A DNA stretch of 64,000 nt from a virus. The position numbers and the translations under genes are program-made. Of the stretch, positions 21,819 to 37,538 are shown in pieces (position 1 is the first letter of the stretch; each line of letters begins with the position of its first letter). Under the pieces are notes generated by a model. That model searched no databases. It had not been told where the DNA came from and saw only the letters and a list, made by a program, of their open reading frames with translations. The stretch covers positions 32,001 to 96,000 of the IMG/VR virus record IMGVR_UViG_3300043446_004967. One strand, 5' to 3'.

Positions 21819-21904
21819 AAAATAACTTACCCTTTTATTAGTATTGTCACAAAGGTTCCCCCCGGAAAAATAATTTTCGAGGGAATCAAGTTAGTTTCCC
21901 GCAA

Positions 21905-22357: not shown

Positions 22358-22543
22358 TTTATCTCCCTTTTTTCTGATAACCCGAATATATTCCCTTTTT
22401 CGTCTCTTGTCAAGAGACAATTAGCCTACCGGAACCAGTAGGCGAGACTACCCTCTTTCTTACGTAAGGTTGTTACAGACGTCCCCCCCCCCGGAAAAAT
22501 AATTTTCGAGGGAATAAGGTGCGCGCTGCAATTATTGCAGAGC

Positions 22544-22939: not shown

Positions 22940-23019
22940 ATTGTACCTACCTGCTAATGTTTGTTTGTCTGGTAACCCGAATCTACCTTTTATCGTGTCT
23001 CCCGTCAAGAGACAAAATA

Positions 23020-24560: not shown

Positions 24561-24585
24561 CCTGCCTCCGGAGTCATTAAAAACA

Positions 24586-24870
24586 TTATAACAGCATCCC
24601 CCAAAAAAAGTCAAAGGCCACATGCCTTCGGTACATCGGACCCTTCTTTACCTCCGCCGTACCCTTGAAAAACGTGAGAAGCGGCGCCGCTTTGGTATCC
24701 TCCCCTAAATAAACCCGAGTCTCCGAGGACTCATCCATAATCGCCGCGACCCGTGTAAAATAGGGCACCGCCTCAGACACAAATGAGCCGCGCCTAAACA
24801 CAACGCCCGTATCATGAGCCTGTCCGTTACGGTCGTAGGTGCGCCACAGGTAAGAAATATACTCTCTCAT
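24586..24870 (-). CDS. Hypothetical protein
   Basis: ORF with RBS. Confidence 0.5.
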   Translation of the reverse strand: MREYISYLWRTYDRNGQAHDTGVVFRRGSFVSEAVPYFTRVAAIMDESSETRVYLGEDTKAAPLLTFFKGTAEVKKGPMYRRHVAFDFFWGMLL

Positions 24871-25327
24871 ATACCCGCCTTAGTCCCCAGAAGACGTTAT
24901 CACTAACGCGCCTAATACCAAAAACGGCACAAAAACAATCAAAATCTTTACCGTTTCCATAAAAAGCTACCCCTTCCATAAAATTTTAATAAACACACAT
25001 AGGAAACCTAAGAAAGGCAGCATTCTAACCTCTTTTATTGTTAAAAGATTAATTAAAAGACTAGGCAACCTCAGAGCACGTACCACACTGGCATAGGCCC
25101 TGCCCGTCAAAACGGAACTGGGCGAAACGCCCGCCTCTACACGGGCGCCCGCTGAGGTATACAGCACGGCAGCCTCTTTTTCGTCGGCTAATACCCCAAA
25201 ACTACACCTTTTAGTGTCGCTTGTCGAGGGACAAAACAACGCACCCCTAAAAGAAACTGTGGTCAATCTGCTACGGTTTTTTGCCGCGAGGGGTAGCGGC
25301 CACACACATACCCGCCAAGGTGGCCGC

Positions 25328-25735
25328 TCATTTTCGCGCAATTTCTGAGGACAAGGGGTTAACTGCAACCCCTTGTCGGAGCACTTCGTAGTGAAGATGA
25401 GGCCCCGTGGAATATCCCGTAGACCCTACGTAACCAATTATCGCCCCTCGCGTCACGGACGCCCCCGGCCTAACGCCATCAGCAAAACGGGATAAGTGCG
25501 CGTAACGAGTAGCTAAGCCCGCAGCGTGACGTAGCGTAACCATATTCCCGTAGCCGCCACGCCTTCCCGCAGACTTTACCACGCCGTCCCCCGTCGCATA
25601 TACGGGCGTCCCCAAAGGGGCGGCAAAATCCACGCCCTTATGCATACGAGAGCACTTAGCAATAGGATGACGCCGGCGTCCGAATCGAGAAGTAATCCGG
25701 GCGTGTTTAATAGGCAGCCCCAACGAAGGGCACAC
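25328..25735 (-). CDS. M23 family peptidoglycan endopeptidase domain
   Basis: HKGVDFAAPLGTPV, YAHL, STGPHLHYEV; probably the -1 frame continuation of 25747..26370. Confidence 0.9.
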   Translation of the reverse strand: MCPSLGLPIKHARITSRFGRRRHPIAKCSRMHKGVDFAAPLGTPVYATGDGVVKSAGRRGGYGNMVTLRHAAGLATRYAHLSRFADGVRPGASVTRGAIIGYVGSTGYSTGPHLHYEVLRQGVAVNPLSSEIARK

Positions 25736-25746
25736 GGCGCCCCCGG

Positions 25747-26370
25747 CTACGAGGCAGGCTTTTTTCCGGAAGGCTCTCCCTCTTTAGAAGGAAGGCCGTC
25801 GCCCCCAAAAAACCGATCAAGCAGACCCACGTCTGACTTAGGGGGAAGCTGTTCCCCCTCGTCCCCGGCTGGCGTATCGCCGTTGTACCTTGGGCCCGGC
25901 AAAACTCCGTCGGGGCCTGACCCCGAAGACGGCGCAATGACTTTCGTCTGCCCCTCCCCGTCGTGCTGGTCAACGAAGTCCCCCAAAGAGGACTCCTTCT
26001 CCGGGGCATACGCGACTTCCGCCCGAGCCGTTTGCCCCGAAGCAAGAAAAGACCTGCGAGCCGGGTAATAAGCATACTCGTTACCGCCCTTAACAAAAGC
26101 GACCCTCGCTCCCTTACCGTGAATCTCCGAAGCAAACCCTATTAATGCCCCCGGCCCCCCTTCCAAAATGTGCCGCTGGTAAACGGACTCGCATCCGTCA
26201 ATGATTTTATCCTCAGTGTACGTATAGTCGCATACGTAGCGGGTAGCTCTTTGCGCCTCCGCCAAAGACGCCTCCAACCCTTTCAGCTGCGAGCGGGCGC
26301 TTAGTCTTCCGCTTACCGCTCCAACGACAACCGCAACTACGGCGACCGCCCCAAACAATTTTTTTGTCAT
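25747..26370 (-). CDS. Signal-anchored N-terminal part of the M23 peptidase
   Basis: MTKKLFGAVAVVAVVVG signal; ends at an A_AAA_AAG slippery site. Confidence 0.7.
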   Translation of the reverse strand: MTKKLFGAVAVVAVVVGAVSGRLSARSQLKGLEASLAEAQRATRYVCDYTYTEDKIIDGCESVYQRHILEGGPGALIGFASEIHGKGARVAFVKGGNEYAYYPARRSFLASGQTARAEVAYAPEKESSLGDFVDQHDGEGQTKVIAPSSGSGPDGVLPGPRYNGDTPAGDEGEQLPPKSDVGLLDRFFGGDGLPSKEGEPSGKKPAS

Positions 26371-26416
26371 AATTTTTTAGTCTCCTTATTTTATAAATTG
26401 CCCCCGGACAAGCCGT

Positions 26417-26749
26417 CTAAGGACGCAAAGGAGCAAGCAAAACGCTCGGACGAGATGCCCGCGCGGAGGGGTTCCCCTCATCGTCATCGTCATCGCCATC
26501 TTCATGGCTGTCCCGCTCCGGAGCCGGAAGATACGACACGGGCGCCGCGCGAGGAATAGCCCGAAGATGCGGGCTAAGCGCGTGCTGGAATCCCAGCCCC
26601 AAGGAAAGCAGCGAAACGGCAATTAAGGCCGCCGCCGTTGTAATCCAAACCCCCCCACGCTCAGCGGTCTTCGCCTTGGCCCCGGCGAATAAGGCCGCAA
26701 CACCGGAAATAATAGTAACGCCGAAAGCTAGTAAAATGTAATAGTCCAT
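26417..26749 (-). CDS. Two-TM membrane protein
   Basis: Two hydrophobic helices and an acidic tail. Confidence 0.6.
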   Translation of the reverse strand: MDYYILLAFGVTIISGVAALFAGAKAKTAERGGVWITTAAALIAVSLLSLGLGFQHALSPHLRAIPRAAPVSYLPAPERDSHEDGDDDDDEGNPSARASRPSVLLAPLRP

Positions 26750-26853
26750 ATTATGTAGGCCCCTTCTTCTTTACTGATTTTCATTTTATGGGGGGCCTCA
26801 GAACGACCCCCCTAGGCATAGTACCGCAACGAAATTAAAAATGCACGGAGAAA

Positions 26854-27207
26854 TTACCACTCCTCCTTGGGCGCAGGTTCCTGCGTGCGGACCCATGCTA
26901 GTAGGGAACTGACGGCCCCGAAAAAATGAGCGGCCACAGCGTCCCCTTCGCACTTCTGCTGCATAGACGGTAACAAATCTGCAATAACTTGCGCCGCGCT
27001 TCGCGGGATCGGGCATGTAGGAGAGGTCAACACCTCAACACACTCCGCCCCCACGCCTAACGAAGCGAAAGTATGATAAGTAACGAGTAATTCGTGCAAG
27101 GTACACGCCCCCGCATTGACTACGACGGGTAACGCGTCGTTCTCCTCCTCCAGCCCCGCTAAAGCCACGCGCAGCTGCCCTAGGTTAGTAATCGTGCGCC
27201 CCCTCAT
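26854..27207 (-). CDS. Hypothetical protein
   Basis: Coupled to dut. Confidence 0.55.
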   Translation of the reverse strand: MRGRTITNLGQLRVALAGLEEENDALPVVVNAGACTLHELLVTYHTFASLGVGAECVEVLTSPTCPIPRSAAQVIADLLPSMQQKCEGDAVAAHFFGAVSSLLAWVRTQEPAPKEEW

Positions 27208-27209
27208 AA

Positions 27210-27725
27210 CTAAACGACCCCCTCGTCTTCGTAGCGTAAGCCGGTGTTGCTAAGCGTTAAACTCTTTACCGAGGCGCCTGTCTGCCCGGTGGAACCAAAC
27301 CCCCCCGCACCCCGCTTGGTGTCGCCCAGCTCCTCAGCCCACGCTAAGGCGACCTTTTGCACGCGCGCAATAACCATCTGCGCCACCCGTTGCCCCGGCT
27401 CAATTAAGCACGGCTCGTCAGAAAGGTTAATTAATAAAACGCTAATCTCCCCCCGATAGTCGGAATCTACCGTTCCCGGCGCATTGGCGACAGTTACCCC
27501 GAACTTAAGCGCAAGGCCGGAACGAGGGCGAAGCTGTGCCTCATAGCCTTCCGGCAGTTCCAACGCGATTCCGCACGGAATCAACGCGCGGCGCAACGGT
27601 TGAAGGATCAGCGACTCGGGGATAGCGGCGTGCAGGTCCATACCTGCGCTTCCTTCCGTCGCGTAAGCGGGAAGCAGCGCCCCGCCACGCACGTCTTTAA
27701 CTTTAACCCTGAGCATCAGTACCAT
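27210..27725 (-). CDS. dut: Trimeric dUTPase
   Basis: [35 protein letters not shown]. Confidence 0.95.
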
Positions 27726-28110
27726 CTCCTTGGTTATGCACGCGCATGAGGCTCAAGGTCACGCGTGCTGCGGTAAGTCTTAGTTTAATTACGCCTTCCG
27801 ACGTAACGGATATGCCGTCCGCACGAGGTATGGGATACGTTGCTACACGACCTGTCCGCATTTCCTGTAGACGAAAACTCCTCTTTACCCCCCGATACCT
27901 CCCTAATATGCCGGAAAGTCCGTTATCCGACGGCAGCCCCCAAGGAAGTAGCTCGACCTCCGTAGGGACACAGGGGAACCCGGGCGTACCGCACTTAGAC
28001 GGTACCCTCGGACTAAACGGTTCCGCCTGTAGGGTAAGGCGGCAACGAGGGGCCAACTGCAACCACCTCGTTACCTCCGAGGGGTTTTTTAACGGAACAG
28101 CAGCCCCCAT
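27703..28110 (-). CDS. Hypothetical protein
   Basis: ORF in operon orientation. Confidence 0.45.
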
Positions 28111-28215
28111 AAAAGCGCCCCCAAAATAATAATTATTAGGGCGTAAAAAAGCACCTTAGCCAGTGCCCCTAACGCACAGCTAAGCGCCTCTAAAAATTCC
28201 TGCATACTCCTCCGC

Positions 28216-28434
28216 TTATACCAACGGCGGCTGCAACGTCACGAAGTGTTGCGCCACCTTTAAAATATCTTTTTTAGTTTTGGGGCAGGCGGCCCCGGCC
28301 AGCCGCTGGAACTCGCGTTTTTTGCAAGCCCCGCACACAGGCGCGATCACGGCCCCTATCGCCGCCAACAATTCTTGCAGCGTTACAAGGTCATCCTCAT
28401 ACTGCTCCCACTGAAAAACAGGCTTCGCCGACAC
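28216..28434 (-). CDS. Small hypothetical protein
   Basis: ORF in operon orientation. Confidence 0.4.
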   Translation of the reverse strand: MSAKPVFQWEQYEDDLVTLQELLAAIGAVIAPVCGACKKREFQRLAGAACPKTKKDILKVAQHFVTLQPPLV

Positions 28435-28451
28435 CGCACGCCCCCAAAAAA

Positions 28452-28868
28452 TTAAAGGTTAGCCGGAACGTCTAACAGCTCTGCAAGCGTTTGCAGAACC
28501 TTCTTCTCCTCCTCGTTCGGCTCCTCACCGGCGACAACCCACCCGAAAGCATAAATGTCTTGCGCAATGTCCCCGGTGCCCTTCATCGCCACCACTTGAC
28601 GCCGCAGCTCCAACTGGCCTTGTACATCCCCCACAAGGGACATGGCCTCGTTAAACGCCCCCCTAATCTCCTTCTCTTCAAAATAATTTCCGATTTTTTT
28701 GTGTCTTAGCAGTAACGCCAAGGTTACTTCACGCTCTGCGGGCTCCGCCTTCTTGTCTGCGTAAGCAACTAAGGCACACGCAGCAGCGGCCGCTGACAAC
28801 ACCTTCTGACGCTCAACGCCTTCACCCGTAAACTTAGCGAACGTCTTACCAAAATTAAACAATCCCAT
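28452..28868 (-). CDS. TerB-like protein
   Basis: AACALVAYAD..EPAER ... EEEKKVLQTLAELL pattern. Confidence 0.75.
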   Translation of the reverse strand: MGLFNFGKTFAKFTGEGVERQKVLSAAAAACALVAYADKKAEPAEREVTLALLLRHKKIGNYFEEKEIRGAFNEAMSLVGDVQGQLELRRQVVAMKGTGDIAQDIYAFGWVVAGEEPNEEEKKVLQTLAELLDVPANL

Positions 28869-29267
28869 AGTAAACCCCTTTATAGCTTAAATTTTTTGTT
28901 AGAATTATCCCCCGCCGTAACCTCAGTCGTCCGGACGGCGGAGCTTATCCCACCAGCGAACTATTTTTACCGTACACCAGACTAACAAAACTATGCCGCC
29001 CAGCGCGAGGCCCGCGACAATCTTATTACCAGACACAAATACGTCCATTTTTTCCTCTTTTTATACAAATTCCTTAGACTCTTAGACGGTTCTAGCCCGC
29101 TTACGTGATTAGCGCAAGCGGAATCGCTCAGGGCCGATCGTTCCACAAAAACAACGCCAAAAGTGCAATACCGCAAACTAACACAACGGGGCCGTCCCCC
29201 GCCGCTCTTATCTCGTGAAACAGCGCGCCCGCAAGATGATAGAGGAGAATAAGGCCGCTGACTATAA

Positions 29268-29783
29268 TCATCCCAAGGAGGAAGTACTCGACGGGATCCT
29301 TATTAGTATTATTAACTCCCCTCCCCTCCCCTCCGTCGGAACGGGAAGGGGGTCCGCGTTCGGCCTGCTCCGTTTTTGCGGACCCCGCTCTGCAAAAATA
29401 TCTATAAAACGTTTTCGTACGTCCTCGTTGGAAAGGGAACAACACTCGCGTTCGGCGCGTGTTATTTTGCGTAGGTGCTCCGTAAGGCGGAACTCCGTCT
29501 TGCTGACATGACGAGGATCCAATCCAAGATCTTCCATGACATCTTTAACATTGCTCCCCTCGACAAAGCGGAGCGCCGTCTCCAAGGTGCATTTAACCTC
29601 TCGACAACGCTTTAATAGACTTCCCATACTCATGTCCACGTACCGCTCGTGGCCGAGAGGCCAACGGCACCTCGACACAACGTCGCTATGGAGACGCGCG
29701 ACCTCACGGTCGGCGTGAAGCGTAACTTTGTGGTATTCGGCCACAACCGGAGGAACCCGATCAAACCTGTCCCAGTGCGTCAT
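29268..29783 (-). CDS. Hypothetical protein (paralog of 29799..30176)
   Basis: WPLGHERY and ERE..SLSNE motifs; GGGAGG RBS. Confidence 0.6.
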   Translation of the reverse strand: MTHWDRFDRVPPVVAEYHKVTLHADREVARLHSDVVSRCRWPLGHERYVDMSMGSLLKRCREVKCTLETALRFVEGSNVKDVMEDLGLDPRHVSKTEFRLTEHLRKITRAERECCSLSNEDVRKRFIDIFAERGPQKRSRPNADPLPVPTEGRGGELIILIRIPSSTSSLG

Positions 29784-29798
29784 TAAGGCGCCTCCCTT

Positions 29799-30176
29799 CT
29801 ATTGGAAAATTCTTTTTATTAACTCCCGCGCCCCTTCGTCGGAAAGGGAGGGGAGTTCGCGTTCTGCCTGGGCTACCCGAGATAACCCCCAAGCGGGGCG
29901 TTCCTCCGCTAACTCTATGGTCGAGGAGCCGTAGCAAAAACTAGCCATCGCACCCTCCACGCCGCTCTCTCGCCAGAAATTTGCAGCAGCGACGAAATCT
30001 TCTTTTATCCAGACCAGCCGCTGGGCTATCTTTTCTTTATTCATTTCCCAATATTGTTCGTGGCCCGGCGGCCAGTCATCCATTGAGGAAATATCGCTCA
30101 GGAGATTTTCTATTTCCCCTTCCGCGCTGCGCATAAGTCTGAGAAACTCTTCATAAGTTTCTAAGGGGCTGTTCAT
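29799..30176 (-). CDS. Hypothetical protein (paralog of 29268..29783)
   Basis: WPPGHEQY and ERE..SLSDE motifs. Confidence 0.65.
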   Translation of the reverse strand: MNSPLETYEEFLRLMRSAEGEIENLLSDISSMDDWPPGHEQYWEMNKEKIAQRLVWIKEDFVAAANFWRESGVEGAMASFCYGSSTIELAEERPAWGLSRVAQAERELPSLSDEGARELIKRIFQ

Positions 30177-30195
30177 TTATATCCCCTCTACTTCT

Positions 30196-30336
30196 CTACT
30201 TTAACTCGTTCACTTTTGGCTTTTGTTGTGCCAAAATAACATCTAAGGTGGCATTTAACTTCGTCACGGCAATGAGAAGTTTTAAAACCGCTTCGCATGC
30301 CTCTTTTTCTTTTTTCTTTTTGTCAAATCAAAACAT
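30196..30336 (-). pseudogene. Small gene with TGA at codon 3
   Basis: AAGGAGG RBS, ATG TTT TGA, then 43 open codons. Confidence 0.45.
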
Positions 30337-30355
30337 TAGGAAGCCTCCTTTTTTG

Positions 30356-30718
30356 TTACAAATCGTTTTCTTCTATATCCACTACTTCGTCATAAACCAT
30401 CTCTACCTCTGGATGGCGCTCAAACAAATCGTATAGTTTATCAAAAAACTCATAGTAATCGCCGTTTCCTGCGCATAGTAGATAAGGTTTTCGGTGTAGC
30501 ATTATGATGTACCCCCGCGCATAGAAACTCGACATACTCAATGTTATTTCAACATTAACACGCCGATTGCCTATCATTTCCTCAAAATGTCTGTTGTAGT
30601 CCATAAAGAGAGGTATCATGAGGCGCAAAAGCTTCCCCAAATTCGGATCTTCACTAATAGCGCTCTCAATTTCTTCCTTTTGTTTATATAGGTAGAAATT
30701 TTCTGGGTTCCAGTTCAC
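30356..30718 (-). CDS. Hypothetical protein (AT-rich block)
   Basis: GGAGG RBS, GTG start. Confidence 0.6.
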   Translation of the reverse strand: MNWNPENFYLYKQKEEIESAISEDPNLGKLLRLMIPLFMDYNRHFEEMIGNRRVNVEITLSMSSFYARGYIIMLHRKPYLLCAGNGDYYEFFDKLYDLFERHPEVEMVYDEVVDIEENDL

Positions 30719-31308
30719 TACTTTCCCTCCTCCGCTCTTGACGACGCCACTCGGCTAAGATTTTGCGGTACACCCGTCGGGTTTTTTTCCGTTATTTCCA
30801 AGTCAGAACACGCACTGACTGCTTTAATAAGCTCGGCTATTATATGAAGATTGTCAAACTTATCAAATGAACCCAGTTCATAAGCCCATCCCAAATGGTT
30901 ATGCTGGTACGCTTCTTTTTTTTGCTCCTCTTTATGTGAAAATTTTATGTAGTATCGGTCGTGCGGCCATACAAAATTGTTTTGGTAATTGTTTTTTTTG
31001 CTTCTGGCTTTCGCTTTTTTCCCCCACCTATCCTCCCATCTTTTGTCCCATCGACGCCCGCCCTGTCTCTGAATGCGGACGGTAAATTCGCCTGTTTGGT
31101 AGTCTTCGCCGATTTGGCCAAGGGTGACCCATAACGAGGCAGGCCCCCATTTGCGCCCCCCTTCATCATCCTTGCCTTCTCGCCTTTTTCGGCTGTCTTT
31201 AAACGTTTGTGCCACCAAGTAGGCAAACTTGGCAGCTTCATATAGCCTGCCATGATCCGGAAAGGCGTAAATACCATCTTTTGTGATGGTGCATTTTGCA
31301 ATTGTCAT
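30718..31308 (-). CDS. Hypothetical protein
   Basis: RBS; coupled stop/start. Confidence 0.6.
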   Translation of the reverse strand: MTIAKCTITKDGIYAFPDHGRLYEAAKFAYLVAQTFKDSRKRREGKDDEGGRKWGPASLWVTLGQIGEDYQTGEFTVRIQRQGGRRWDKRWEDRWGKKAKARSKKNNYQNNFVWPHDRYYIKFSHKEEQKKEAYQHNHLGWAYELGSFDKFDNLHIIAELIKAVSACSDLEITEKNPTGVPQNLSRVASSRAEEGK

Positions 31309-31324
31309 TTTTATGCCCCTTCCT

Positions 31325-32176
31325 TTAGATTAATAATAATTTCTGGGTATCGGCCTCTACGTTCCTTTTTGGGAACATTTCTTCCGACGTATTGATGTGA
31401 TATTGAAGCATTCCGTTTTGCTTCGATAAGTTATATGTCGGAGTCTGCGAGTCCCATTCGCAGATCATTAATGTTCTTATTGCATCATTAATACCTATTA
31501 TTAATAAGTAATCCTGCATATTTGTTTCAAATATTTTAAACTGCAATCCCATTTTTTTAATTTCATTAAATACTTCAAATAACGCAATTTTTTTCCTCAC
31601 CCTGTGCGCGAGTATATGGGGAAAGGTTCTCTCTCCGTGACCAGTTTGTGCCTCGTCGCAATAATAATCAACCTCCTCGTAATACTTTTCTTCCGCCAGC
31701 TCAATAAGTGCGGATTTGTATTGATCCTCTTTAATAACATCATTTTTAGAGTATTCGTAAAATACCTCCTTACACTCATCTTCTTGTTGGCTTATTCTTT
31801 CGCCCAAGACTAAAAACGACTCGCTTCTTCCGTAGTCCTTTGCTACATTTTCGTGTGACTTTTTTTCGCTATTGATTATTTTATTCCTCATTATTTCTTT
31901 TTGAATATCTTTATTCCATTCGTAAAAATACTCAAAATGAAGCCCGGCCATTCCCTCATCATACGTCACGTATGTTTTATATCTTTTAGTCTTTCTTGAG
32001 CGAGATTCGTAAGTTATTACGGTTCTCGTATCCAATCTTTTTAAACATATAGTGATTTCATACTTCGTAAAAGGGTAACGTACTTCGGCCTTTATACCGT
32101 TTTTGGTTTTTTCTACTTTTGTTCCTTTTCCTTTTTCTTGGAAAAAGCGCATTAATGTTTTGTCATTAAGTGACAT
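31325..32176 (-). CDS. Hypothetical protein (AT-rich)
   Basis: 283-aa ORF. Confidence 0.65.
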   Translation of the reverse strand: MSLNDKTLMRFFQEKGKGTKVEKTKNGIKAEVRYPFTKYEITICLKRLDTRTVITYESRSRKTKRYKTYVTYDEGMAGLHFEYFYEWNKDIQKEIMRNKIINSEKKSHENVAKDYGRSESFLVLGERISQQEDECKEVFYEYSKNDVIKEDQYKSALIELAEEKYYEEVDYYCDEAQTGHGERTFPHILAHRVRKKIALFEVFNEIKKMGLQFKIFETNMQDYLLIIGINDAIRTLMICEWDSQTPTYNLSKQNGMLQYHINTSEEMFPKRNVEADTQKLLLI

Positions 32177-32211
32177 AAATAACTTTCCCTACTCTCTGTT
32201 ACCAGGTGGAC

Positions 32212-32520
32212 TTAATCCGCTTCTCGCGGCCACATCCCAGAACGTTTAAATTCATTCCATTTTTGGAGCCAACGCAGTTCCACAATGGGACGGGTGACAA
32301 GGTTCAGGCTTTTCCATGCGTCTGAAGCTTTAAGCTTTGCCATAAAGAAATCCGCCTTTTGAGGGCGTATGTATTCATCCCCCGTCATCAATTCGTCCGC
32401 CAGTTTCATGGCGTTTTCGATTTGCATATAATATTTATTATTATTGCAATCATATTGAGCAAAGCGCGGGCGGCCTTTGCTGTCCAAATCGACGGCGGCG
32501 TTGTTGTTGTTATTTTCCAT
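32212..32520 (-). CDS. Poly-Asn N-terminal protein (paralog A)
   Basis: MENNNNNAAVDLDSKGRPR...SLNLVTRPIVEL. Confidence 0.7.
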   Translation of the reverse strand: MENNNNNAAVDLDSKGRPRFAQYDCNNNKYYMQIENAMKLADELMTGDEYIRPQKADFFMAKLKASDAWKSLNLVTRPIVELRWLQKWNEFKRSGMWPREAD

Positions 32521-32582
32521 CTCAATTCTCCACTGATTATTCTTTGTTAATTTTTGTTCGTGTCCGAAATGGCGGCTATTCC

Positions 32583-32843
32583 CTAACAGCAGCTAATCGG
32601 CACACCCGTTCTACGCGCCTCGTCTTCGGTAATTTCAGCGACGTATGGGCAATCGCCGGCTTTTGCGATGCGGACCTCCGATAAGCTAACCGCTGCCTGC
32701 TTGTACGGCCTTTGCTCGGGGTCGTAGGGGTCGCATCGTAAGCACCGTACCCACTCGACCAGCGCGATGCCCTCCTGTTCGTTTACCTCATCCACCCAAA
32801 CATGGGTGGCAACAACGGGGACTCTCCATTTGAGCTGTTCCAT
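32583..32843 (-). CDS. Hypothetical protein
   Basis: RBS. Confidence 0.55.
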   Translation of the reverse strand: MEQLKWRVPVVATHVWVDEVNEQEGIALVEWVRCLRCDPYDPEQRPYKQAAVSLSEVRIAKAGDCPYVAEITEDEARRTGVPISCC

Positions 32844-32910
32844 GCCATTCCCCTATTTAAATTCCCCCGCCATTTTTTAATTAACGGGCGGGGGTTGTAA
32901 GGTTTTTTGA

Positions 32911-33375
32911 CTAGGCAGCGCGCCTGGATTGCCACAGGCGTACCGCCGCTTTTCTGTTAGATATCGAAACCCCGTTTCTTTTTAATACCCGACACCCTTC
33001 AGATATTGCGGTAACTTCGCTTCCATAATAGGCCGCTTCAATCTCGCGCGCCCACTCCTCCAATTTAGCGTTGTACGCAGCGATTAACGCCGGGGCCTCG
33101 GCCTCAGCCTTTTGCTTGGCCCGCGCCTCCGCCTCGGCCTTTTCTTTTCTTTCTTTGTAAAGTTTGGGTACCAAATCCCAGCTTTGGGGGGTTTGGCCCT
33201 CGGTCACACCCTTTATGAACTCTTTAAAACTCCCCTCTTTTCCGTGTTCTATCATGAATGATAAATGAGCAAGGCTCATCTTCATTATCATTTGATTACC
33301 TTTTTCAGACCCCGAAAAAGCTTCCATGTACATGACGGCGAAATGGGCCGTAAGAGCAAAGTCTTGGGTTCCCAT
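32911..33375 (-). CDS. Hypothetical protein
   Basis: Start after the promoter at ~33422-33450. Confidence 0.6.
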   Translation of the reverse strand: MGTQDFALTAHFAVMYMEAFSGSEKGNQMIMKMSLAHLSFMIEHGKEGSFKEFIKGVTEGQTPQSWDLVPKLYKERKEKAEAEARAKQKAEAEAPALIAAYNAKLEEWAREIEAAYYGSEVTAISEGCRVLKRNGVSISNRKAAVRLWQSRRAA

Positions 33376-33403
33376 GATTTTCCCCTTTTTTGCTTCTAAT
33401 TTG

Positions 33404-33571
33404 TTTTTTTCTTCTAAAACCAGCCTACCCTCTTTCTTGTCGCTCGTCAAGAGACAAATTTGGCGAACACATAAAAAAACCGCCCCGTGCCCAGAGCGGT
33501 TCCCTTGTAAAGGTTTCTTATTCCTTCCGGATGAAGCCCAGGATAAGGCCCGGCGCAGCGGAGTCGAACCC
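33404..33571. repeat. 168-bp direct repeat, copy A (Ro60 3' end + terminator + promoter)
   Basis: Near-identical to 35493-35660. Confidence 0.92.
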
Positions 33572-34537
33572 GTGACGCGCAGTACGAGACTTGACGGAAG
33601 TAAATTTTTTGTACCTCACTAAGAATTTAACTAAATTTTTATCTATCTCCTCCTTAGGCGGAAGGTCTATAGGAAGTAGCGCGTCTTTCTCCGCGCTGTG
33701 CCGCATTTCCTTTTTCCTCTCGAAGTCAACACAGACACTTTGGTCCGCCGCCCAAGTCAGGCGGGCGCCCTCACGGGTTTTGCCGCGTCGGCCCAGACGG
33801 CCGATCTTTTGGGCGATTTCCAAACCACCGTCCAGATCGTTCACTGCGAGGATAAGATTCTCGCACGGAAGGTTCACGCCCTGCTGGGCGATGTTGGACG
33901 TAATCAGCGTATTAAGTTTTCCCCTTCTAAATTGCAAAAACTTAGTGAATATGTCGTATTCACTTCGCCGCCGGTCCGCGACGGCAAATTTTTCACCCAT
34001 CTTAGATAAAACGCCCTGCCAGTAATCCACGTCTCGCCATGACGTGCACAAAATTAAGGTCGGCACCTGACCGATCCGCTCGGTCGCCTCAGTCAAGTCG
34101 ATTTGCTCCTTTTGCGCCATCGGCGGGGCCGGCAACTCAACAACTCTATCCTCCTTTGGAATTTCAAACGGAACAGTTGCTGAAAGGCAGGTTACTTTTG
34201 TCTCGCCTTTCCGGCACGCCGCCATCAATGCGCGTAGGTGGACGCGCTGGCCCAAATACTCCCCGTCGACCCAATGCGCCTCGTCGATTATGACGGTTTT
34301 GTATTTTTTTACCGCCGCTAGACTGAGCGCCTGATAGGTGGCAAAAAGATTTCTAGTTCCCTCAATATGAGCCACACCCGTCTTGAGGGCGTCCCCTTCT
34401 CGCCCATAGTCAAGCCACGCCTCCATGGCCAAGAGTCGCGTCGGGGCCAGAAAGGCGAAAGGGGCTTGCGCCTCGCTAATCGCCTTGTAAGTTTTACCAG
34501 ACCCTGTAGGCCCGGTAATCCATGTGATTTTACTCAT
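33518..34537 (-). CDS. Compact SF2 (Suv3-like) helicase
   Basis: GPTGSGKT, APTRLLAME, IIDEAH, SAT, QGVNLP, QKIGRLGR. Confidence 0.85.
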   Translation of the reverse strand: MSKITWITGPTGSGKTYKAISEAQAPFAFLAPTRLLAMEAWLDYGREGDALKTGVAHIEGTRNLFATYQALSLAAVKKYKTVIIDEAHWVDGEYLGQRVHLRALMAACRKGETKVTCLSATVPFEIPKEDRVVELPAPPMAQKEQIDLTEATERIGQVPTLILCTSWRDVDYWQGVLSKMGEKFAVADRRRSEYDIFTKFLQFRRGKLNTLITSNIAQQGVNLPCENLILAVNDLDGGLEIAQKIGRLGRRGKTREGARLTWAADQSVCVDFERKKEMRHSAEKDALLPIDLPPKEEIDKNLVKFLVRYKKFTSVKSRTARHGFDSAAPGLILGFIRKE

Positions 34538-34934
34538 CCTCATCCCCCGCCCTCGTTCGGAAGTCATCCCCGAGCCATTCGACGACTCGGTTAAATTCCA
34601 GCCCCTCCGCCTCCCTAGGCCATTCGACATGATCGGCTCTTCGGAAGAGGTTCCATTTTCGGAGTAAACAAAGCTCCACAATTGGCCTCGTCACTAAATT
34701 GAGCGAGGCCCAGCAAGACGATTTCTTTAGGGTATCAATCAATTCTTGTCCCGATCTAGGGCGAACATGAGGATCGCCGTCCATTATTTCGTCGGCTATA
34801 TTCAATGCTGTATTGATTTGCCTATAATATTCATTATTATCGCAATCATATTTACAAAGGCGCGGGCGGCCTTTGCTGTCCAAATCGACGGCGGCGTTGT
34901 TGTTGTTGTTGTTGTTGTTGTTGTTATTTTCCAT
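34530..34934 (-). CDS. Poly-Asn N-terminal protein (paralog B)
   Basis: Longer AAC tract; same motifs as 32212..32520. Confidence 0.7.
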   Translation of the reverse strand: MENNNNNNNNNNNAAVDLDSKGRPRLCKYDCDNNEYYRQINTALNIADEIMDGDPHVRPRSGQELIDTLKKSSCWASLNLVTRPIVELCLLRKWNLFRRADHVEWPREAEGLEFNRVVEWLGDDFRTRAGDEDE

Positions 34935-34947
34935 TTCGCTTCCCCTT

Positions 34948-35211
34948 TTATGGATTTTTGTCAAATTTGGTGTATTTTTTTGCCGCAGCAGCAAAATCGG
35001 CTGCCTTTTCGGCGTAAAGCGGGTCAAAGTTAGCCGCCTCCGCCATCTTCACCGCCGCTTCCCGGAAGCGGTATTGCGTGAACAAAGCCAGCGCAAAGAG
35101 GGCCTTGGCTTGCGCTGCCCGCTGGACCGCGCGCCGCGCCTCCTCCATTGCCTCCTGCTCTAACTCCAGCATCCCCCCCGCACCTCTCGCGGAACCCTCC
35201 ACAGGCATCAC
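34948..35211 (-). CDS. Small TPR-like protein
   Basis: AKALFALALFTQYRFREAAVKMAEAANFDP. Confidence 0.5.
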   Translation of the reverse strand: MMPVEGSARGAGGMLELEQEAMEEARRAVQRAAQAKALFALALFTQYRFREAAVKMAEAANFDPLYAEKAADFAAAAKKYTKFDKNP

Positions 35212-35223
35212 CTTTCCCCCGCG

Positions 35224-35472
35224 TCAGTTACTTTTTAGTCGTTGATCGTACTCATCAACGAACTTTTGAAAGTATGGCGCGAGTGACCCCGCGTTAGCCA
35301 TACATTGCCGCGCCTTACTCAGATCACCCCGCTGTTCGTGCGTTCGCGCCAGCCAGTATTCGGCAGCGCAGCTCGCGGCCACTGAGCGCTGAAAACATTC
35401 GTCAGCGCTCATCGCCGGCGTAAATGCCAGCTCCGCGTAAGGCCACCTCTTTCTACGGAATAATGAAAACAC
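35224..35472 (-). CDS. Small TPR-like protein
   Basis: AEYWLARTHEQRGDLSKARQCMANA. Confidence 0.5.
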   Translation of the reverse strand: MFSLFRRKRWPYAELAFTPAMSADECFQRSVAASCAAEYWLARTHEQRGDLSKARQCMANAGSLAPYFQKFVDEYDQRLKSN

Positions 35473-35492
35473 TTACCTGTAACCCCTTTTTC

Positions 35493-35660
35493 TTTTTTTC
35501 TTCTAAAACCAGCCTACCCTCTTTCGTGTCGCTCGTCAAGAGACAAATTTGGCGAACACATAAAAAAACCGCCCCGTGCTCAGGGCGGTTCCCTTGTAAA
35601 ACCCCCTTATTCCTTCCGGATGAAGCCCATGATAAGGCCCGGCGCAGCGGAGTCGAACCC
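35493..35660. repeat. 168-bp direct repeat, copy B
   Basis: Near-identical to 33404-33571. Confidence 0.92.
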
Positions 35661-36308
35661 AGATACCCCGAAGGACAACGGGTCTTTCGGGTCCGCTACG
35701 GATCCCCTGTTCGCGGCAGCCGCAAGAACCACCAGCTTGGCCTTCGGGTGGCTCATGCGCAGAAGATCCCGCAAGGTCCACTCGTTGCGATTGTAGTATT
35801 TAAGTGCCTGCCAAACTAACGCCTCGCCGGACTTCTCAGTAAACCAACGGGCGACCGCATCCCGCAAACCGCGACCCCATCCCCGCAACTTGTCCGAAAA
35901 ACTTACAAACATTAGAATGTCGGTGCCCGTGCGGGCGACCGAGGGCAAGGCAGCTAAGGCCAGCCCCTTCGCCTCCGGCGTGGAGCACGACGCGACCAAC
36001 GCTAAGGCAAAGATAACAGTATCCCGCTTCGCCGCCCTGCCGGCCATGCTGATCTCTACGATACGCGCGATAACGCGCACTGCGTCCCGCTCACACAATG
36101 TGAGCAGGATTATCGCGTTCTCTTTAGTCAATGCCTCCGGACGCACGTAATACGTGCCGTTTTGCGATCCCGTTGTTAAAAAACGGTCCAACTGCTCCCA
36201 CGGGTCCACCTCGTAGTAGGCGCCCCCGGCATTATTGGGGACTTGCCCCGGCAGAGGCTTTTTCGTAGAAAGCCCGCTCCCGCGCAAAATATCGCCATAC
36301 TTCGTCAT
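35607..36308 (-). CDS. Ro60/TROVE (Rsr) homolog with a large in-frame internal deletion
   Basis: QVPNNAGGAYY..LDRFLTTGSQNGTYY, ARTGT, GWGRGLR, KY..R.EWTLRDLLRMSHPK joined directly to the C-terminal AKLVV..SVADP.D..GFDSAAP. Confidence 0.9.
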   Translation of the reverse strand: MTKYGDILRGSGLSTKKPLPGQVPNNAGGAYYEVDPWEQLDRFLTTGSQNGTYYVRPEALTKENAIILLTLCERDAVRVIARIVEISMAGRAAKRDTVIFALALVASCSTPEAKGLALAALPSVARTGTDILMFVSFSDKLRGWGRGLRDAVARWFTEKSGEALVWQALKYYNRNEWTLRDLLRMSHPKAKLVVLAAAANRGSVADPKDPLSFGVSGFDSAAPGLIMGFIRKE

Positions 36309-36432
36309 TTTTTACGTCCTCTTTTCTCTTGTGTGCAGGCGTAACCCTGCACTGCCGCACGCTCAGCCGTCAACTACGGGAACCGCGAATAAGGCAAAAT
36401 GAAAAAAACGAGGGGGGTGGAGAAGAAAAGGC

Positions 36433-36533
36433 GCGGGGCACGCTCAGCAGAAAAGCGATTAATAGCAGACGGCAATGCTGCTAATAAAACTGCGACTGTC
36501 ACACAGTGGCTTGCTGCTGGTCTGGTGCCCCGC
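36433..36533 (-). ncRNA. Structured RNA element 4 (long closed hairpin, different class)
   Basis: Terminal stem GCGGGGCAC/GTGCCCCGC with internal hairpins. Confidence 0.5.
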
Positions 36534-36543
36534 ATAAAAGTAA

Positions 36544-36628
36544 CTCTAAACGAATTAGACATGCTTGTCGCACAGGAGCATATGATTACAAGTCATAACC
36601 TATGCGCTACGGCCCAACCCGTTTAGAG
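36544..36628 (-). ncRNA. Y-RNA-like (Yrl-type) element 3
   Basis: Closing stem; GGGCCG...GGUUAU...AUGUC; UAUGA-CUUGUAA-UCAUA hairpin. Confidence 0.7.
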
Positions 36629-36636
36629 ATACGGTA

Positions 36637-36717
36637 TAAACAAACTGGACATTAGTTGCCCACAGGAGGGTATGTATTTCAAGGACATAACCTGCGAGCA
36701 TCGGCCCAGTTTGTTTA
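36637..36717 (-). ncRNA. Y-RNA-like (Yrl-type) element 2
   Basis: 12-bp closing stem; GGGCCGAUG...GGUUAU...AUGUCC. Confidence 0.7.
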
Positions 36718-36719
36718 AG

Positions 36720-36802
36720 TATCGGGCATAAATCACCAGCCGGAGAGGGCGCAAGGCCCCATTTAGTATCTTGAATGATAACCAGCCGGTAGCGGCTCGA
36801 TA
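36720..36802 (-). ncRNA. Y-RNA-like (Yrl-type) element 1
   Basis: Closing stem; GAGCCG...GGUUAUC...AUGCCC. Confidence 0.65.
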
Positions 36803-36808
36803 AAAAGA

Positions 36809-36837
36809 ACTCTATCGCAAAGCCCCGAACGACGCAA
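36809..36837 (-). promoter_or_regulatory. Promoter of the Y-RNA/Ro60 operon
   Basis: TTGCGT-17-TAGAGT immediately upstream of element 1. Confidence 0.6.
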
Positions 36838-37055
36838 GCTTTTTTTGAAAAAAATCAGCCGAACGCCAGTGCAATTTTTACTATACTATAGTCTAATAGG
36901 TATGTATCTAATTGAGGTTACTCTCGCCTAAGCGAGAGTAACCTACGTGGCGTGGCCTTACGGTCGAGAAATATACCACAATTACGGCGCCGCCCGAGGC
37001 GACGCGCTTAAATTCCCATTTACTATCTACTATTTGCCGGAAGGGAGACGGCCCG

Positions 37056-37538
37056 TTAACGGATAAGCCCCGTTCGCACGTATAAATGCAAATCCTCCGG
37101 AAGCTCCTGTACCTCCCGGCTCTCCATAAAATAACGGTAAGCCGCCTTTCCCGCCGCTTCAACCTTCTCTCTCTTATCCCAGGAAAAATCCTCTGGGCTA
37201 TGCCATGAGGACCAGCCAATGGAGACAATGTAAACTGGCCGTGCCTTGCACGTAAACGAAGAAAACTCCGAACTCGCCCCGTTCTCCTTCAAAAATGGCA
37301 GACAGTAACGTTTAGCCTCGTCGCGTAGTAGCAGCGCGGGAGATACAAAAGCGTCAATGTAGTGCCCGTGGCCCGGAAACTCCGTCGTCAAAGACACTAA
37401 AGCCGTCTGAGCCGCGTTATATACGGCTGAGTATGCCTTATTAAAATCGGACTCCCCTTTCTCGGAGAGGAAGCGGCAAGAGAACCTGTCTAACCGTAAT
37501 AATCCGTCGACCTTATCGGAGGAAATGAACACCGGCAT
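37056..37538 (-). CDS. Hypothetical protein
   Basis: ORF with RBS. Confidence 0.55.
   Translation of the reverse strand: MPVFISSDKVDGLLRLDRFSCRFLSEKGESDFNKAYSAVYNAAQTALVSLTTEFPGHGHYIDAFVSPALLLRDEAKRYCLPFLKENGASSEFSSFTCKARPVYIVSIGWSSWHSPEDFSWDKREKVEAAGKAAYRYFMESREVQELPEDLHLYVRTGLIR

What the first reader, a model, noticed from the sequence alone, without database searches (positions are those of the whole stretch)
36330..36837. Array of minimised Y-RNA-like genes co-transcribed with mini-Ro60
One promoter drives three ~82-nt elements. Their closing stems differ in sequence but all pair, and they share G(G/A)GCCG...GGUUAU...AUG(U/C)C, i.e. a bulged Ro-binding-type helix. A fourth 101-nt hairpin follows, and a partial fifth shares GCUGAGCGUGC with it. 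They lack the T-arm (GUUCGA) of tRNA-like YrlA RNAs, so both RNA and protein appear reduced together. This is the best candidate for an undescribed phage RNP system.
Basis: partly seen in the sequence, partly recalled or inferred. Interest (0 to 1): 0.9.

Follow-up and report, generated by a model that had tools for sequence, protein, structure and literature searches.

The report
Short Y RNAs beside truncated phage Ro60
A 111-kb phage carries three tandem, roughly 85-nt Y-RNA-type genes just upstream of a Ro60 gene that has lost its middle 300 codons; the RNAs are ordinary short Ro-partner RNAs found next to full-length Ro60 in many bacteria and phages, and only the truncated protein is unusual, seen so far in this one genome.

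Summary
On the minus strand, 36540-36803, there are three stem-loops spaced 91-92 nt apart. They share G(G/A)GCCG-N9-GGUUAU...AUG(U/C)C, and both stems keep pairing through compensatory changes.

They are Y-RNA-like (Yrl) genes. A covariance model built only from 32 short RNAs next to bacterial Ro60 genes ranks them as the top three hits in the 64-kb window (30.8, 23.8 and 16.1 bits; the next hit scores 12.5). The 5' motif occurs 215 times on the Ro strand and 6 times on the other strand in 80 bacterial Ro loci, usually as 3-4 tandem copies. About half of those copies lack a T-arm, although the Ro60 beside them is full length.

So the idea that RNA and protein were minimised together is not supported. 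Short Y RNAs without a T-arm are a normal class.

The 233-aa "mini-Ro60" is a real open frame. It is an in-frame deletion of about 303 residues, with the junction at a P(K/Q)A microhomology. Its nearest relatives (74-77% identical; P0179 is about 93-95% identical in the tail) are full length. It keeps the Y-RNA-binding arc, including H187, but loses the ring and the MIDAS site. No second example was found.

The promoter and co-transcription with the protein gene could not be verified. The fourth hairpin is real and looks like a terminator. The "fifth" element is weak.

Verdict: a new member of a known kind, plus a single truncated Ro60 of unknown functional status.

The parts
36719..36803 (-). 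E1, Y-RNA-like element 1. The 5' motif is GAGCCG-N9-GGUUAUC. It has a 10-bp upper stem, a small V hairpin (UAUC/GAUA) and an extra 5-bp hairpin in the loop. Its lower stem is short, with an A-C mismatch. It is the weakest copy.
   Evidence: Fold (z -2.1); pattern match; pair table; independent models R2 10.3 bits and R3 16.1 bits, E 0.57, third-best hit in the window.
36637..36717 (-). E2, Y-RNA-like element 2. It has a 14-bp lower stem ending GGGC/GUCC, a bulged C and GGGCCGAUG. Above that are a 10-bp upper stem, GGUUAUG and a 5-bp V hairpin.
   Evidence: Fold (z -4.6); (14/14 and 10/11 pairs); R3 30.8 bits, E 7e-4, best hit in the window and in the genome; R2 18.8 bits.
36547..36625 (-). E3, Y-RNA-like element 3, with the same architecture as E2 (GGGCCGUAG). 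Its V hairpin has a 5-bp stem and the 7-nt loop CUUGUAA. Extra outer pairs extend it to 36540-36632.
   Evidence: Fold (z -2.9); the single-sequence model of E2 finds it at 51.3 bits; R3 23.8 bits, E 0.017; pair table.
36433..36533 (-). A 101-nt Y-shaped hairpin. It has a 9-bp G+C-rich basal stem and two apical hairpins, and is followed by CUUUUCUUCU. It has no Y-RNA motif. It is most likely a terminator or a 3' protective structure for the array, or an unrelated structured RNA.
   Evidence: Fold (-46 kcal/mol, z -4.35); terminator-like sites at 36443-36431 and 36507-36489; no hit from R1, R2 or R3 or from Rfam.
36309..36432 (-). Leader of the mini-Ro60 gene. It holds a U-rich tract, the 11-nt repeat GCUGAGCGUGC (36357-36367), a 7-bp hairpin (about 36335-36354) and a Shine-Dalgarno sequence AGAGGA 8 nt before the ATG. 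The 'partial fifth element' is not supported as an RNA gene.
   Evidence: Sequence; fold (z -1.3, not significant); repeat D7.
35607..36308 (-). Mini-Ro60 CDS, 233 aa. Residues 1-189 match the N-terminal HEAT arc of Ro60 (X. laevis 13-191, including H187). Residues 190-233 match the last beta-strand and helix (X. laevis 493-533). The junction lies at codons 187-191 (35736-35750).
   Evidence: Pfam TROVE positions 2-175 of 442 plus vWA_Ro60 positions 121-165 of 165; BLASTP against the full-length relatives P0053 and P0179; PDB alignment; AF2 model with pLDDT 87; Foldseek match to 1YVP, rmsd 2.3 A over 183 columns.
35560..35592 (-). Intrinsic terminator after mini-Ro60: a G+C-rich hairpin followed by U7. 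It lies inside a 172-nt cassette (35489-35660) that is duplicated at 33400-33571. The cassette also carries a TTGACG-N17-TAGGCT promoter for the next gene.
   Evidence: Sequence; repeat; promoter pattern.
36915..36944 (-). A perfect 13-bp hairpin upstream of the array. It may be the terminator of the upstream 160-aa ORF. The region between it and E1 (36804-36914) must hold the array's promoter if the array has one of its own.
   Evidence: Inverted repeat I1; fold; no sigma-70-like site.

Best explanation
E1-E3 are three tandem genes for short Y-RNA-like (Yrl) noncoding RNAs.

Architecture. Each RNA has a long stem formed by its 5' and 3' ends. The 5' strand of that stem carries the Ro60 recognition sequence (GGGCCGA/U, compare GGUCCGA and GNCGAA) followed by a bulged C. 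A second 8-10-bp helix follows, then the conserved YUAY motif (GGUUAU), which opens a small 'V' hairpin. The T, acceptor-like and D arms of tRNA-like YrlA are absent.

Inferred mode of action, by analogy with M. smegmatis and phage phiLo. The RNAs are made as one precursor upstream of the Ro gene and trimmed to RNAs of about 80-90 nt. A Ro60-type protein binds their lower stems.

The adjacent gene. It encodes a Ro60 that lost residues about 188-490 through a deletion between two P(K/Q)A-coding microhomologies. It keeps the N-terminal arc that contacts Y RNA. It cannot form the closed ring or the vWA/MIDAS module, so it cannot thread RNA 3' ends.

Most likely scenario. The deletion is evolutionarily recent. 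The RNAs were shaped by selection with a full-length Ro60 and now act either with the host's Rsr or with a crippled, binding-only phage protein.

What is shown: the sequences, the folds, family membership by independent models, and the architecture of the deletion. What is inferred: expression, processing, and which protein binds the RNAs.

The confidence given refers to the identification of the RNAs as Y-like RNAs, not to the function of the protein.
For: - Motif and fold statistics within the window.
- Compensatory changes in both stems among the three copies.
- The same G(G)YCG-N9/10-GGUUAY motif was then found upstream of, and on the same strand as, full-length Ro genes in six phage loci not used to define it. 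Many of those units lack a T-loop.
- In 80 bacterial Ro loci the motif occurs 215 times on the Ro strand against 6 on the other, in 69 loci, most often 3-4 copies per locus. About 55% of units lack a T-loop-like sequence.
- Models built without any window sequence rank E1-E3 as the top three hits in 128 kb searched. R2, from 7 actinophage RNAs, gives E 0.007, 0.0096 and 1.9. R3, from 32 bacterial RNAs with 16 base pairs, 12 of them covarying, gives 30.8, 23.8 and 16.1 bits against 12.5 for the next hit.
- Literature: the GNCGAAN0-1G and YUAY motifs, two or more Y RNAs per species processed from one precursor upstream of rsr, and Y RNAs in 22 phages (PMC4201824); Yrl1 and Yrl2 upstream of phage phiLo Ro60 (PMC12135203).
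- Protein: Pfam, BLASTP against full-length relatives, and the PDB alignment that retains H187 (H187S abolishes Y RNA binding, PMC11277228).
- The mutated phiLo RNA-contact residues fall mostly in the segment that aligns with the retained part. The residue numbering in the solved chains does not match the paper's exactly, so this mapping is approximate.
Against: - No Rfam family (Y_RNA, YrlA, sbRNA) reaches E<=10 on these elements.
- E1 is weak: 16 bits, an A-C mismatch in the Ro-binding helix, and CCGC instead of CCGA.
- The strict GNCGAA motif is missed by one base in E2 and E3, and by more in E1. The same variants (GGCCGAUG, GGCCGUAG, GGCCGCUA) do occur in bacterial Ro loci.
- No close relative of this phage was found, so there is no locus-level covariation.
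- No promoter was identified.
- E-values from the shortened calibration are rough.
Confidence: 0.85

Rival explanations
1. Decaying locus. The Ro60 gene was recently inactivated by a spontaneous microhomology deletion. The 233-aa product is unstable or inert. The three Y RNA genes are still-intact leftovers, or now serve only the host Rsr. In that case there is no 'mini RNP'.
For: - It is a singleton. No other protein among 5.8 billion clusters has the N-plus-C fusion architecture. Other short TROVE proteins on long contigs diverge into unrelated sequence after the N-terminal region, which I read as frameshift products.
- The nearest relatives are full length, and P0179 is about 93-95% identical to the window protein over the C-terminal 40-odd residues.
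- The junction sits in a CCG-(A/C)AG-GCC repeat, which makes the deletion in-frame automatically (sequence).
- The orphan beta-strand KLVVLAAAAN is predicted with pLDDT of about 51.
- Another recombination scar lies nearby: a 172-nt duplication that grafts the Ro tail onto a helicase.
Against: - The ORF is intact, with a good Shine-Dalgarno sequence and its own terminator.
- The retained part shows no excess of substitutions at family-conserved sites compared with its full-length relatives: 10 against 9 of 70 columns. A very recent deletion would give the same result.
- The N-terminal arc is modelled confidently (pLDDT above 90).
Confidence: 0.5
2. Functional half-ring Ro. The truncated protein is a selected, Y-RNA-binding-only module that forms a minimal RNP with E1-E3. 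It might stabilise the RNAs, or sequester or redirect host PNPase or Rsr, without any RNA-threading activity.
For: - It retains residues equivalent to X. laevis Ro60 13-191, including H187 and the K170/R174 region, and the final helix that belongs to the HEAT domain (PMC12135203).
- The N-terminal arc has a confident AF2 model that superposes on 1YVP.
- The ORF, RBS and terminator are intact.
- The three partner RNAs are well preserved.
Against: - Same as above: a singleton, a recent-looking deletion at a microhomology, and a low-confidence tail.
- The RNAs are not specially reduced. The same short class accompanies full-length Ro60 elsewhere.
Confidence: 0.25
3. The elements are not Ro-related RNAs. 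They would instead be generic repeated palindromes such as terminators, REP-like elements or protein-binding sites, or degenerate tRNA genes.
For: - Each is a strong hairpin. E2's 3' strand is U-rich and is flagged by the terminator scan.
- The plus strand of E2 also scores 32 bits with the E2 model, because the hairpin is nearly symmetric.
Against: - The motif, the strand and the position next to a Ro60 gene match 215 units in 69 independent bacterial loci with a 215:6 strand bias.
- Independent covariance models pick exactly these three sites in the window.
- The motif occurs nowhere else in the 111-kb genome.
- ARAGORN and the Rfam tRNA model find nothing here.
Confidence: 0.04

Closest known systems
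Short bacterial and phage Y RNAs without a tRNA-like domain. Published examples are S. Typhimurium YrlB, D. radiodurans Yrn2 and the Thermus phage phiLo RNAs Yrl1 and Yrl2. The units I found next to Ro genes in mycobacteriophage Jessibeth14, Microbacterium phage FuzzBuster, Streptomyces phage Yaboi, Gordonia phage Sixama and 32 bacterial loci are unannotated in the records shown here.
   Same: They sit upstream of, and on the same strand as, the Ro60 gene, in tandem. They share the long terminal stem with G(G)YCG(A/G/U), the second helix of 8-10 bp placed exactly 9-10 nt later, the YUAY/GGUUAY motif and the small apical hairpin. Lengths are 65-90 nt. They are recognised by models built from those RNAs.
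   Different: Here all three copies are of the short class, and no tRNA-like YrlA is found anywhere in the genome. About three quarters of the bacterial loci with the motif (53 of 69) have at least one unit with a T-loop. The lower stems of E2 and E3 are unusually long and A/U-rich (14 bp). The adjacent Ro60 is truncated.
YrlA (Rfam RF02553), the tRNA-like Y RNA
   Same: The Ro-binding stem, the GNCGA-type motif and the YUAY motif at the start of the V loop (PMC4201824).
   Different: The T arm, acceptor-like stem and D arm are missing. The model gives no hit at E<=1 in the genome, whereas it does hit upstream of Ro in phages Cashline and FuzzBuster.
Metazoan Y RNAs and nematode sbRNAs
   Same: The overall plan of lower stem, bulged C, upper stem and loop. 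GGGCCGA compares with GGUCCGA, and UUAU(C/G) at the start of the loop compares with the conserved UUAUC of sbRNAs and vertebrate Y RNAs (PMC4726728). The sbRNA model RF01656 aligned to the outer stem of a phage Y RNA.
   Different: Rfam Y_RNA and sbRNA give no significant hit on the window elements. There is no oligo-U/La tail context. Homology between bacterial and vertebrate Y RNAs is not accepted in the literature.
Ro60 / Rsr (TROVE + vWA), including the phage Ro60 of phiLo and of actinophages
   Same: The N-terminal 189 residues and the C-terminal 44 residues are collinear with Ro60. Identity is 74-77% to full-length metagenomic relatives and 38-41% to X. laevis Ro60 in the structural alignment.
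   Different: About 303 residues are missing: the second half of the HEAT ring and almost all of the vWA domain, including MIDAS. The defining closed ring and central cavity therefore cannot form.

Membership tests
Y RNA-like (Yrl) RNAs associated with Ro60/Rsr | Encoded within about 2 kb of a Ro60 orthologue and on the same strand | tested here: met
   The array ends 238 nt upstream of the mini-Ro60 start, on the same (minus) strand.
Y RNA-like (Yrl) RNAs associated with Ro60/Rsr | A long stem formed by pairing of the 5' and 3' ends, interrupted by a bulge or internal loop, then a second helix | tested here: met
   MFE folds and the pair table. Lower stem: 14/14 pairs in E2 and E3, and 7/8 over the terminal helix in E1 (8/12 in the script's longer window). 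Upper stem: 10/11, 10/11 and 9/11. Changes are compensatory.
Y RNA-like (Yrl) RNAs associated with Ro60/Rsr | Ro-recognition motif on the 5' strand (GGUCCGA in animals; GNCGAAN0-1G in bacteria) | tested here: inconclusive
   E2 reads GGGCCGAUG, E3 GGGCCGUAG and E1 GAGCCGCUA. That is one mismatch to GNCGAA in E2 and E3, and more in E1. The same variants are frequent in 215 units next to bacterial Ro60 genes.
Y RNA-like (Yrl) RNAs associated with Ro60/Rsr | Conserved YUAY at the start of the apical (V) loop | tested here: met
   GGUUAU lies exactly 9 nt after GRGCCG in all three elements. The motif is described in PMC4201824.
Y RNA-like (Yrl) RNAs associated with Ro60/Rsr | Recognised by a covariance model of family members built without the candidate sequences | tested here: met
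   R3, from 32 bacterial RNAs, gives 30.8, 23.8 and 16.1 bits. These are the top three hits in the window; the next scores 12.5. R2, from 7 phage RNAs, also ranks them as the top three.
Y RNA-like (Yrl) RNAs associated with Ro60/Rsr | Physically bound by Ro60/Rsr, and dependent on it for accumulation | not testable with these tools
   This needs RIP, EMSA or Northern blots.
YrlA (RF02553), tRNA-like Y RNA | T-arm (GUUCGA-type loop) and D-arm forming a tRNA-like module | tested here: not met
   No RF02553 hit at E<=10 in the region or at E<=1 in the genome. There is no T-loop-like string in E1-E3, and ARAGORN finds nothing.
Vertebrate Y RNA (RF00019) / sbRNA | A match to the curated models | tested here: not met
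   No hit at E<=10.
Ro60 / TROVE protein | TROVE domain sequence | tested here: met
   PF05731, E 3e-14, but only positions 2-175 of 442. In addition PF25045 positions 121-165 of 165.
Ro60 / TROVE protein | A closed HEAT-repeat ring with a central cavity, capped by a vWA domain with MIDAS | tested here: not met
   Residues equivalent to about 188-490 of P0053 or P0179, and to 192-492 of X. laevis Ro60, are absent. The DxSxS MIDAS region lies in the missing part (alignment).
Ro60 / TROVE protein | Y-RNA-binding surface (H187 and neighbouring basic residues) | tested here: met
   H187 and the K170/R174/R180/R184 equivalents are retained. The functional relevance of H187 comes from PMC11277228. 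Actual binding was not tested.

The most novel reading that the evidence does not exclude
The 233-aa protein is a selected 'half-ring' Ro60 that has kept only the Y-RNA-binding arc. Together with three Y RNAs that carry only the V hairpin, it would form a minimal phage RNP. Such an RNP would act by binding or decoying host factors (Rsr, PNPase, or enzymes that recognise anticodon-loop-like hairpins) rather than by threading RNA through a ring. This would separate Ro60's Y-RNA-binding function from its RNA-surveillance function in nature.
Probability: 0.2. Interest if true: 0.7.

Novelty: new member of a known kind. Interest (0 to 1): 0.38.

Why it matters
Tandem Y RNA genes next to Ro60 are established biology in bacteria and phages, so the array itself adds one more phage example, from a lineage with no close relatives in the collections searched.

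Two things give it some value.

First, the locus pairs intact Y RNAs with a natural Ro60 deletion that keeps the Y-RNA-binding arc and removes the ring. This is a ready-made construct for asking whether that arc alone can fold and bind Y RNA.

Second, following this locus showed that the short class of Y RNA without a T-arm, marked by G(G)YCG-N9/10-GGUUAY, is very widespread and usually tandem: 215 units in 69 of 80 bacterial Ro loci. Rfam detects none of the window's three copies. The apical hairpin of this class is strongly enriched for anticodon-loop-like 7-nt loops. That is a testable lead on what the short Y RNAs recruit.

Tried and rejected
- Rfam at the gathering threshold and at E<=10: no Y-type family matched the elements.
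- Exact-pattern scan of IMG/VR with an E2/E3-derived 22-mer: one hit, inside a high-GC coding region, judged a chance match.
- Searches for close relatives of the phage failed, so the locus could not be compared with kin. I used mini-Ro60, P0053, the upstream 160-aa ORF and the helicase in viral contigs. I also used a Ro alignment in metagenome contigs, which returned only a 1.2-kb fragment at 49% identity.
The contigs of the full-length relatives P0179 (14 kb) and P0173 (90 kb) could therefore not be fetched.
- MAFFT alignments of the elements misplace the 3' strands. I used model-guided alignment instead.
- A single-sequence model of E2 is too specific. It finds E3 well, but E1 and the phage homologues only at 10-16 bits, among generic hairpins.
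- Hairpin 4 as a fourth Y RNA: rejected. It has no motif and no model hit.
- The fifth element as a partial copy: rejected as unsupported.
- A sigma-70 promoter or a phage promoter cassette upstream of the array: none found.
- A test for relaxed constraint on mini-Ro60 was uninformative: 10 against 9 deviations at 70 conserved columns.
Full report
**Where it lies.** The window is bases 32001-96000 of a 110,897-bp IMG/VR virus record with direct terminal repeats. All features discussed are on the minus strand. The order in the direction of transcription is: a 160-aa ORF (37056-37538), a 747-nt non-coding stretch (36309-37055), a 233-aa ORF (35607-36308), an intrinsic terminator, and a promoter cassette.

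**The observation.** Three elements follow one another at 91-92-nt spacing: E1 36719-36803, E2 36637-36717 and E3 36547-36625.
- Each folds into a long stem-loop: -28.3, -30.8 and -26.0 kcal/mol, with z-scores of -2.1, -4.6 and -2.9 against shuffles.
- The whole 592-nt region has z -5.6.
- The shared motif GRGYCG-N9-GGTTAY occurs three times in the window and in the whole genome. All three are in the array, against 0.10 expected.
- A pair-by-pair table gives 10/11, 10/11 and 9/11 pairs for the upper helix. Four positions change on both sides among just three copies (C-G/U-G/G-C, G-U/C-G/C-G, G-C/G-U/A-U, U-G/A-U/A-U).
- The lower helix is fully paired (14/14) in E2 and E3 despite four differing positions.
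- After GGGC/GUCC comes an unpaired C and a G.U pair, which is the geometry of the Ro-binding helix of Y RNAs.
- A small hairpin that starts in UUAU is also kept by compensation: UAUGU/ACAUA, UAUGA/UCAUA and UAUC/GAUA.

The fourth, 101-nt hairpin (36433-36533) is real (-46 kcal/mol, z -4.35) but has none of these motifs. The 'fifth' element rests on a single 11-nt repeat and a fold no better than shuffles (z -1.3). I do not accept it as an element.

**What the RNAs are.** Rfam gives nothing for Y_RNA, YrlA or sbRNA, even at E<=10. So I compared the elements with loci that hold annotated phage Ro-like genes.

In Gordonia phage Cashline and Microbacterium phage FuzzBuster, Rfam YrlA hits lie just upstream of the Ro gene. 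Their outer stems read GGGCCG-N9-GGUUACC ... CAACAUGCCC, the same motifs as in the window. FuzzBuster also has two units of about 65 nt with the motif but no T-arm.

I then searched six phage loci I had not yet looked at. The loosened motif G.YCG-N8-10-G[GA]TTAY turned up upstream of the Ro gene, on its strand, in Jessibeth14 (3 copies), TunaTartare (1), Yaboi (2), Sixama (1) and Big4 (1). Sparky has a G-A-G-C-C-G-N10 variant. Seven of these units are 65-90 nt long and have no T-loop.

In 80 bacterial Ro60 loci from many phyla, the motif occurs 215 times on the Ro strand and 6 times on the other. It is present in 69 loci, most often as 3-4 tandem copies and up to 10. By a crude T-loop test, 45% of units are tRNA-like and 55% are not.

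**Independent models.**
- R2 was built only from the seven actinophage short units. It ranks E3, E2 and E1 as the three best hits in the whole window with filters off: 19.3, 18.8 and 10.3 bits (E 0.007, 0.0096, 1.9).
- R2 then found 32 units at E<0.001 in the bacterial loci, all on the Ro strand and mostly directly upstream of the gene.
- RNAalifold on that alignment gives 16 pairs, 12 of them with compensatory changes. It also shows a lower helix GGGC/G(U/C)CC with the same G.U as in the window.
- R3 was built from those 32 bacterial RNAs. It again ranks E2 (30.8 bits, E 7e-4), E3 (23.8 bits, E 0.017) and E1 (16.1 bits, E 0.57) first. Generic hairpins follow at 12.5 bits or less. Nothing else in the genome matches.

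The E-values are rough because calibration was shortened. The ranking and the global two-helix alignments are the main evidence.

**Published work.** This agrees with the literature.
- Chen et al. 2014 (PMC4201824) describe the GNCGAAN0-1G motif, likened to the GGUCCGA contacted by X. laevis Ro60, and a conserved YUAY that begins the 'V' loop.
- They report at least two Y RNAs per species, one tRNA-like and one a plain hairpin, and processing of M. smegmatis YrlA and YrlB from a single precursor upstream of rsr. They found Y RNAs in 22 phages.
- Thermus phage phiLo has Yrl1 and Yrl2 upstream of its Ro60 (PMC12135203).
- The UUAUC loop motif of sbRNAs and vertebrate Y RNAs (PMC4726728) resembles the GGUUAU(C/G) seen here.

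In the published nomenclature, E1-E3 are therefore Y RNAs that keep the Ro-binding stem, the second helix and the V hairpin, and lack the T, acceptor-like and D arms.

**The protein.** The 233-aa ORF matches Pfam TROVE positions 2-175 of 442 and the last 45 positions of the Ro60 vWA model.
- Its nearest relatives are full length. P0053 and P0173 (537 aa) are 74% identical over residues 4-189 and 78% over 187-232. P0179 (538 aa) is 77% identical over 1-190 and about 93-95% over the C-terminal 40-odd residues.
- The query runs from ...RMSHPKA straight into AKLVVLAA.... In the relatives these two segments are about 300 residues apart (SH(P/A)KA at about 187-190 and NP(R/Q)AKL at about 490).
- At the DNA level the junction reads CCG AAG GCC AAG CTG. 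A deletion between two CCG-(A/C)AG-GCC repeats would produce this, and such a deletion is in-frame by construction.
- Against solved structures the protein aligns to X. laevis Ro60 residues 13-191 and 493-533. It keeps H187, whose H187S mutation abolishes Y RNA binding (PMC11277228). It also keeps the basic KY..R....RDLLR segment.
- The RNA-contact residues mutated in phiLo Ro60 map mostly to that segment. The numbering in the solved chains does not match the paper's exactly, so this mapping is approximate.
- The second half of the HEAT ring and the vWA core with MIDAS are gone.
- AlphaFold models the N-terminal arc with pLDDT above 90. It superposes on 1YVP at 2.3 A over 183 columns. The orphan strand after the junction has pLDDT of about 51.

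No other protein with this fusion architecture was found. Short TROVE proteins on long contigs diverge into unrelated sequence after the N-terminal region in the alignment, which I read as frameshift products. The retained part shows no excess of changes at conserved columns compared with its full-length relatives (10 against 9 of 70). This fits either ongoing constraint or a very recent deletion, so it does not decide the matter.

**Transcription.**
- The consensus scan finds no sigma-70-like promoter on the minus strand between 36800 and 37060.
- The phage's own recurrent cassette, TTGACR-N17-TANNYT, occurs 8 times on the minus strand against 0.47 expected. All copies lie at 18119-35539, downstream of this locus.
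- Hairpin 4 has a 9-bp G+C-rich base followed by CUUUUCUUCU and is flagged as terminator-like. The array and the protein gene may therefore be only partly co-transcribed.
- A strong terminator follows the mini-Ro60 stop. It lies in a 172-nt cassette that is duplicated 2,089 nt downstream. The second copy gives the SF2 helicase ORF (33518-34681) the last 17 residues of Ro60. This is a second recombination scar in the neighbourhood.

**Interpretation.** I am confident (about 0.85) that E1-E3 are genuine Y-RNA-type genes of the short class. I reject the idea that RNA and protein were minimised together, because the same short class sits beside full-length Ro60 in many phages and bacteria.

For the protein, I favour a recent spontaneous deletion whose product is inert or at best binding-only (about 0.5) over a selected half-ring Ro (about 0.2-0.25). 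The reasons are that it is a singleton, the junction is a microhomology, the closest relatives are full length, and the tail is poorly modelled. The Y RNAs may then act with a host Rsr, if the unknown host has one. None of this can be settled without expression and binding data.

**Limits.** I could therefore not inspect the loci of the closest full-length relatives, nor check reads across the deletion junction or RNA expression. No close relative of the phage exists in the collections I could scan.

Noticed in passing
L016-L095 (80 bacterial Ro60 loci); for example L067:4169-5412 with 10 copies, L023:1293-2254 with 6 and L056:1059-2342 with 7: The motif G.YCG-N8-10-G[GA]TTAY marks tandem arrays of Y-like RNAs next to Ro60 genes across many phyla. 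It occurs 215 times on the Ro strand against 6 on the other, in 69 of 80 loci, usually as 3-4 copies. In the few loci where I ran Rfam (the window and three phage loci), its YrlA model scored below its gathering score or did not match, so such arrays may be under-annotated.
   Followed up: partly
110 short units in L001-L095 and in the window; window E3 apical hairpin at about 36580-36596 (-): The small hairpin that follows GGUUAY (the 'V' stem-loop of Chen 2014) is enriched for 7-nt loops with the anticodon-loop signature. Y-U-NNN-R-N appears in 42 of 110 units (shuffles give a mean of 5.6 and a maximum of 12). C-U-NNN-A-[A/C] appears in 24 of 110 (shuffles: mean 0.7, maximum 3). The mirror control gives 4 against 5.1. 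The 'anticodon' triplets vary (GUU, GAU, UGU and others). E3 has CUUGUAA on a 5-bp stem. E2 and E1 have 9-nt and 6-nt loops.
   Followed up: partly
window 33400-33571 and 35489-35660 (-): A 172-nt direct repeat (94% identical) carries the last 17 codons of Ro60, a terminator and a TTGACG-N17-TAGGCT promoter. Through the second copy, the SF2 (DEAD/Suv3-like) helicase ORF 33518-34681 ends in the Ro60 tail GFDSAAPGLILGFIRKE.
   Followed up: partly
window 18119-35539 (-): There are eight copies of a promoter-like cassette TTGACR-N17-TANNYT, all on the minus strand (0.47 expected). None lies upstream of 35540, so the Ro/Y locus and the genes above it use another kind of promoter.
   Followed up: no
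L010:1137-1298 and 1303-1476 (Mycobacterium phage Jessibeth14, genes 231 and 232): Two small 'hypothetical protein' CDS annotated just upstream of the Ro-like gene overlie two of the three Y-like RNA units at L010:1100-1465, namely the tRNA-like unit and Jess3. They are probably not protein-coding.
   Followed up: no
mini-Ro60 residue 130 (window about 35919-35921) and its relatives P0053 and P0179: The clade made up of the window protein and its full-length relatives deviates from other Ro60 proteins at 9-10 of 70 highly conserved columns (the median for other sequences is 2-3). One of these is H130D in the near-invariant RTGTH motif.
   Followed up: no
window 36915-36944 and 36963-37022 (-): A perfect 13-bp hairpin and a G+C-rich hairpin lie between the upstream ORF and the array. 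The region folds with z -3.4. They have no U-tract and no Rfam identity.
   Followed up: no
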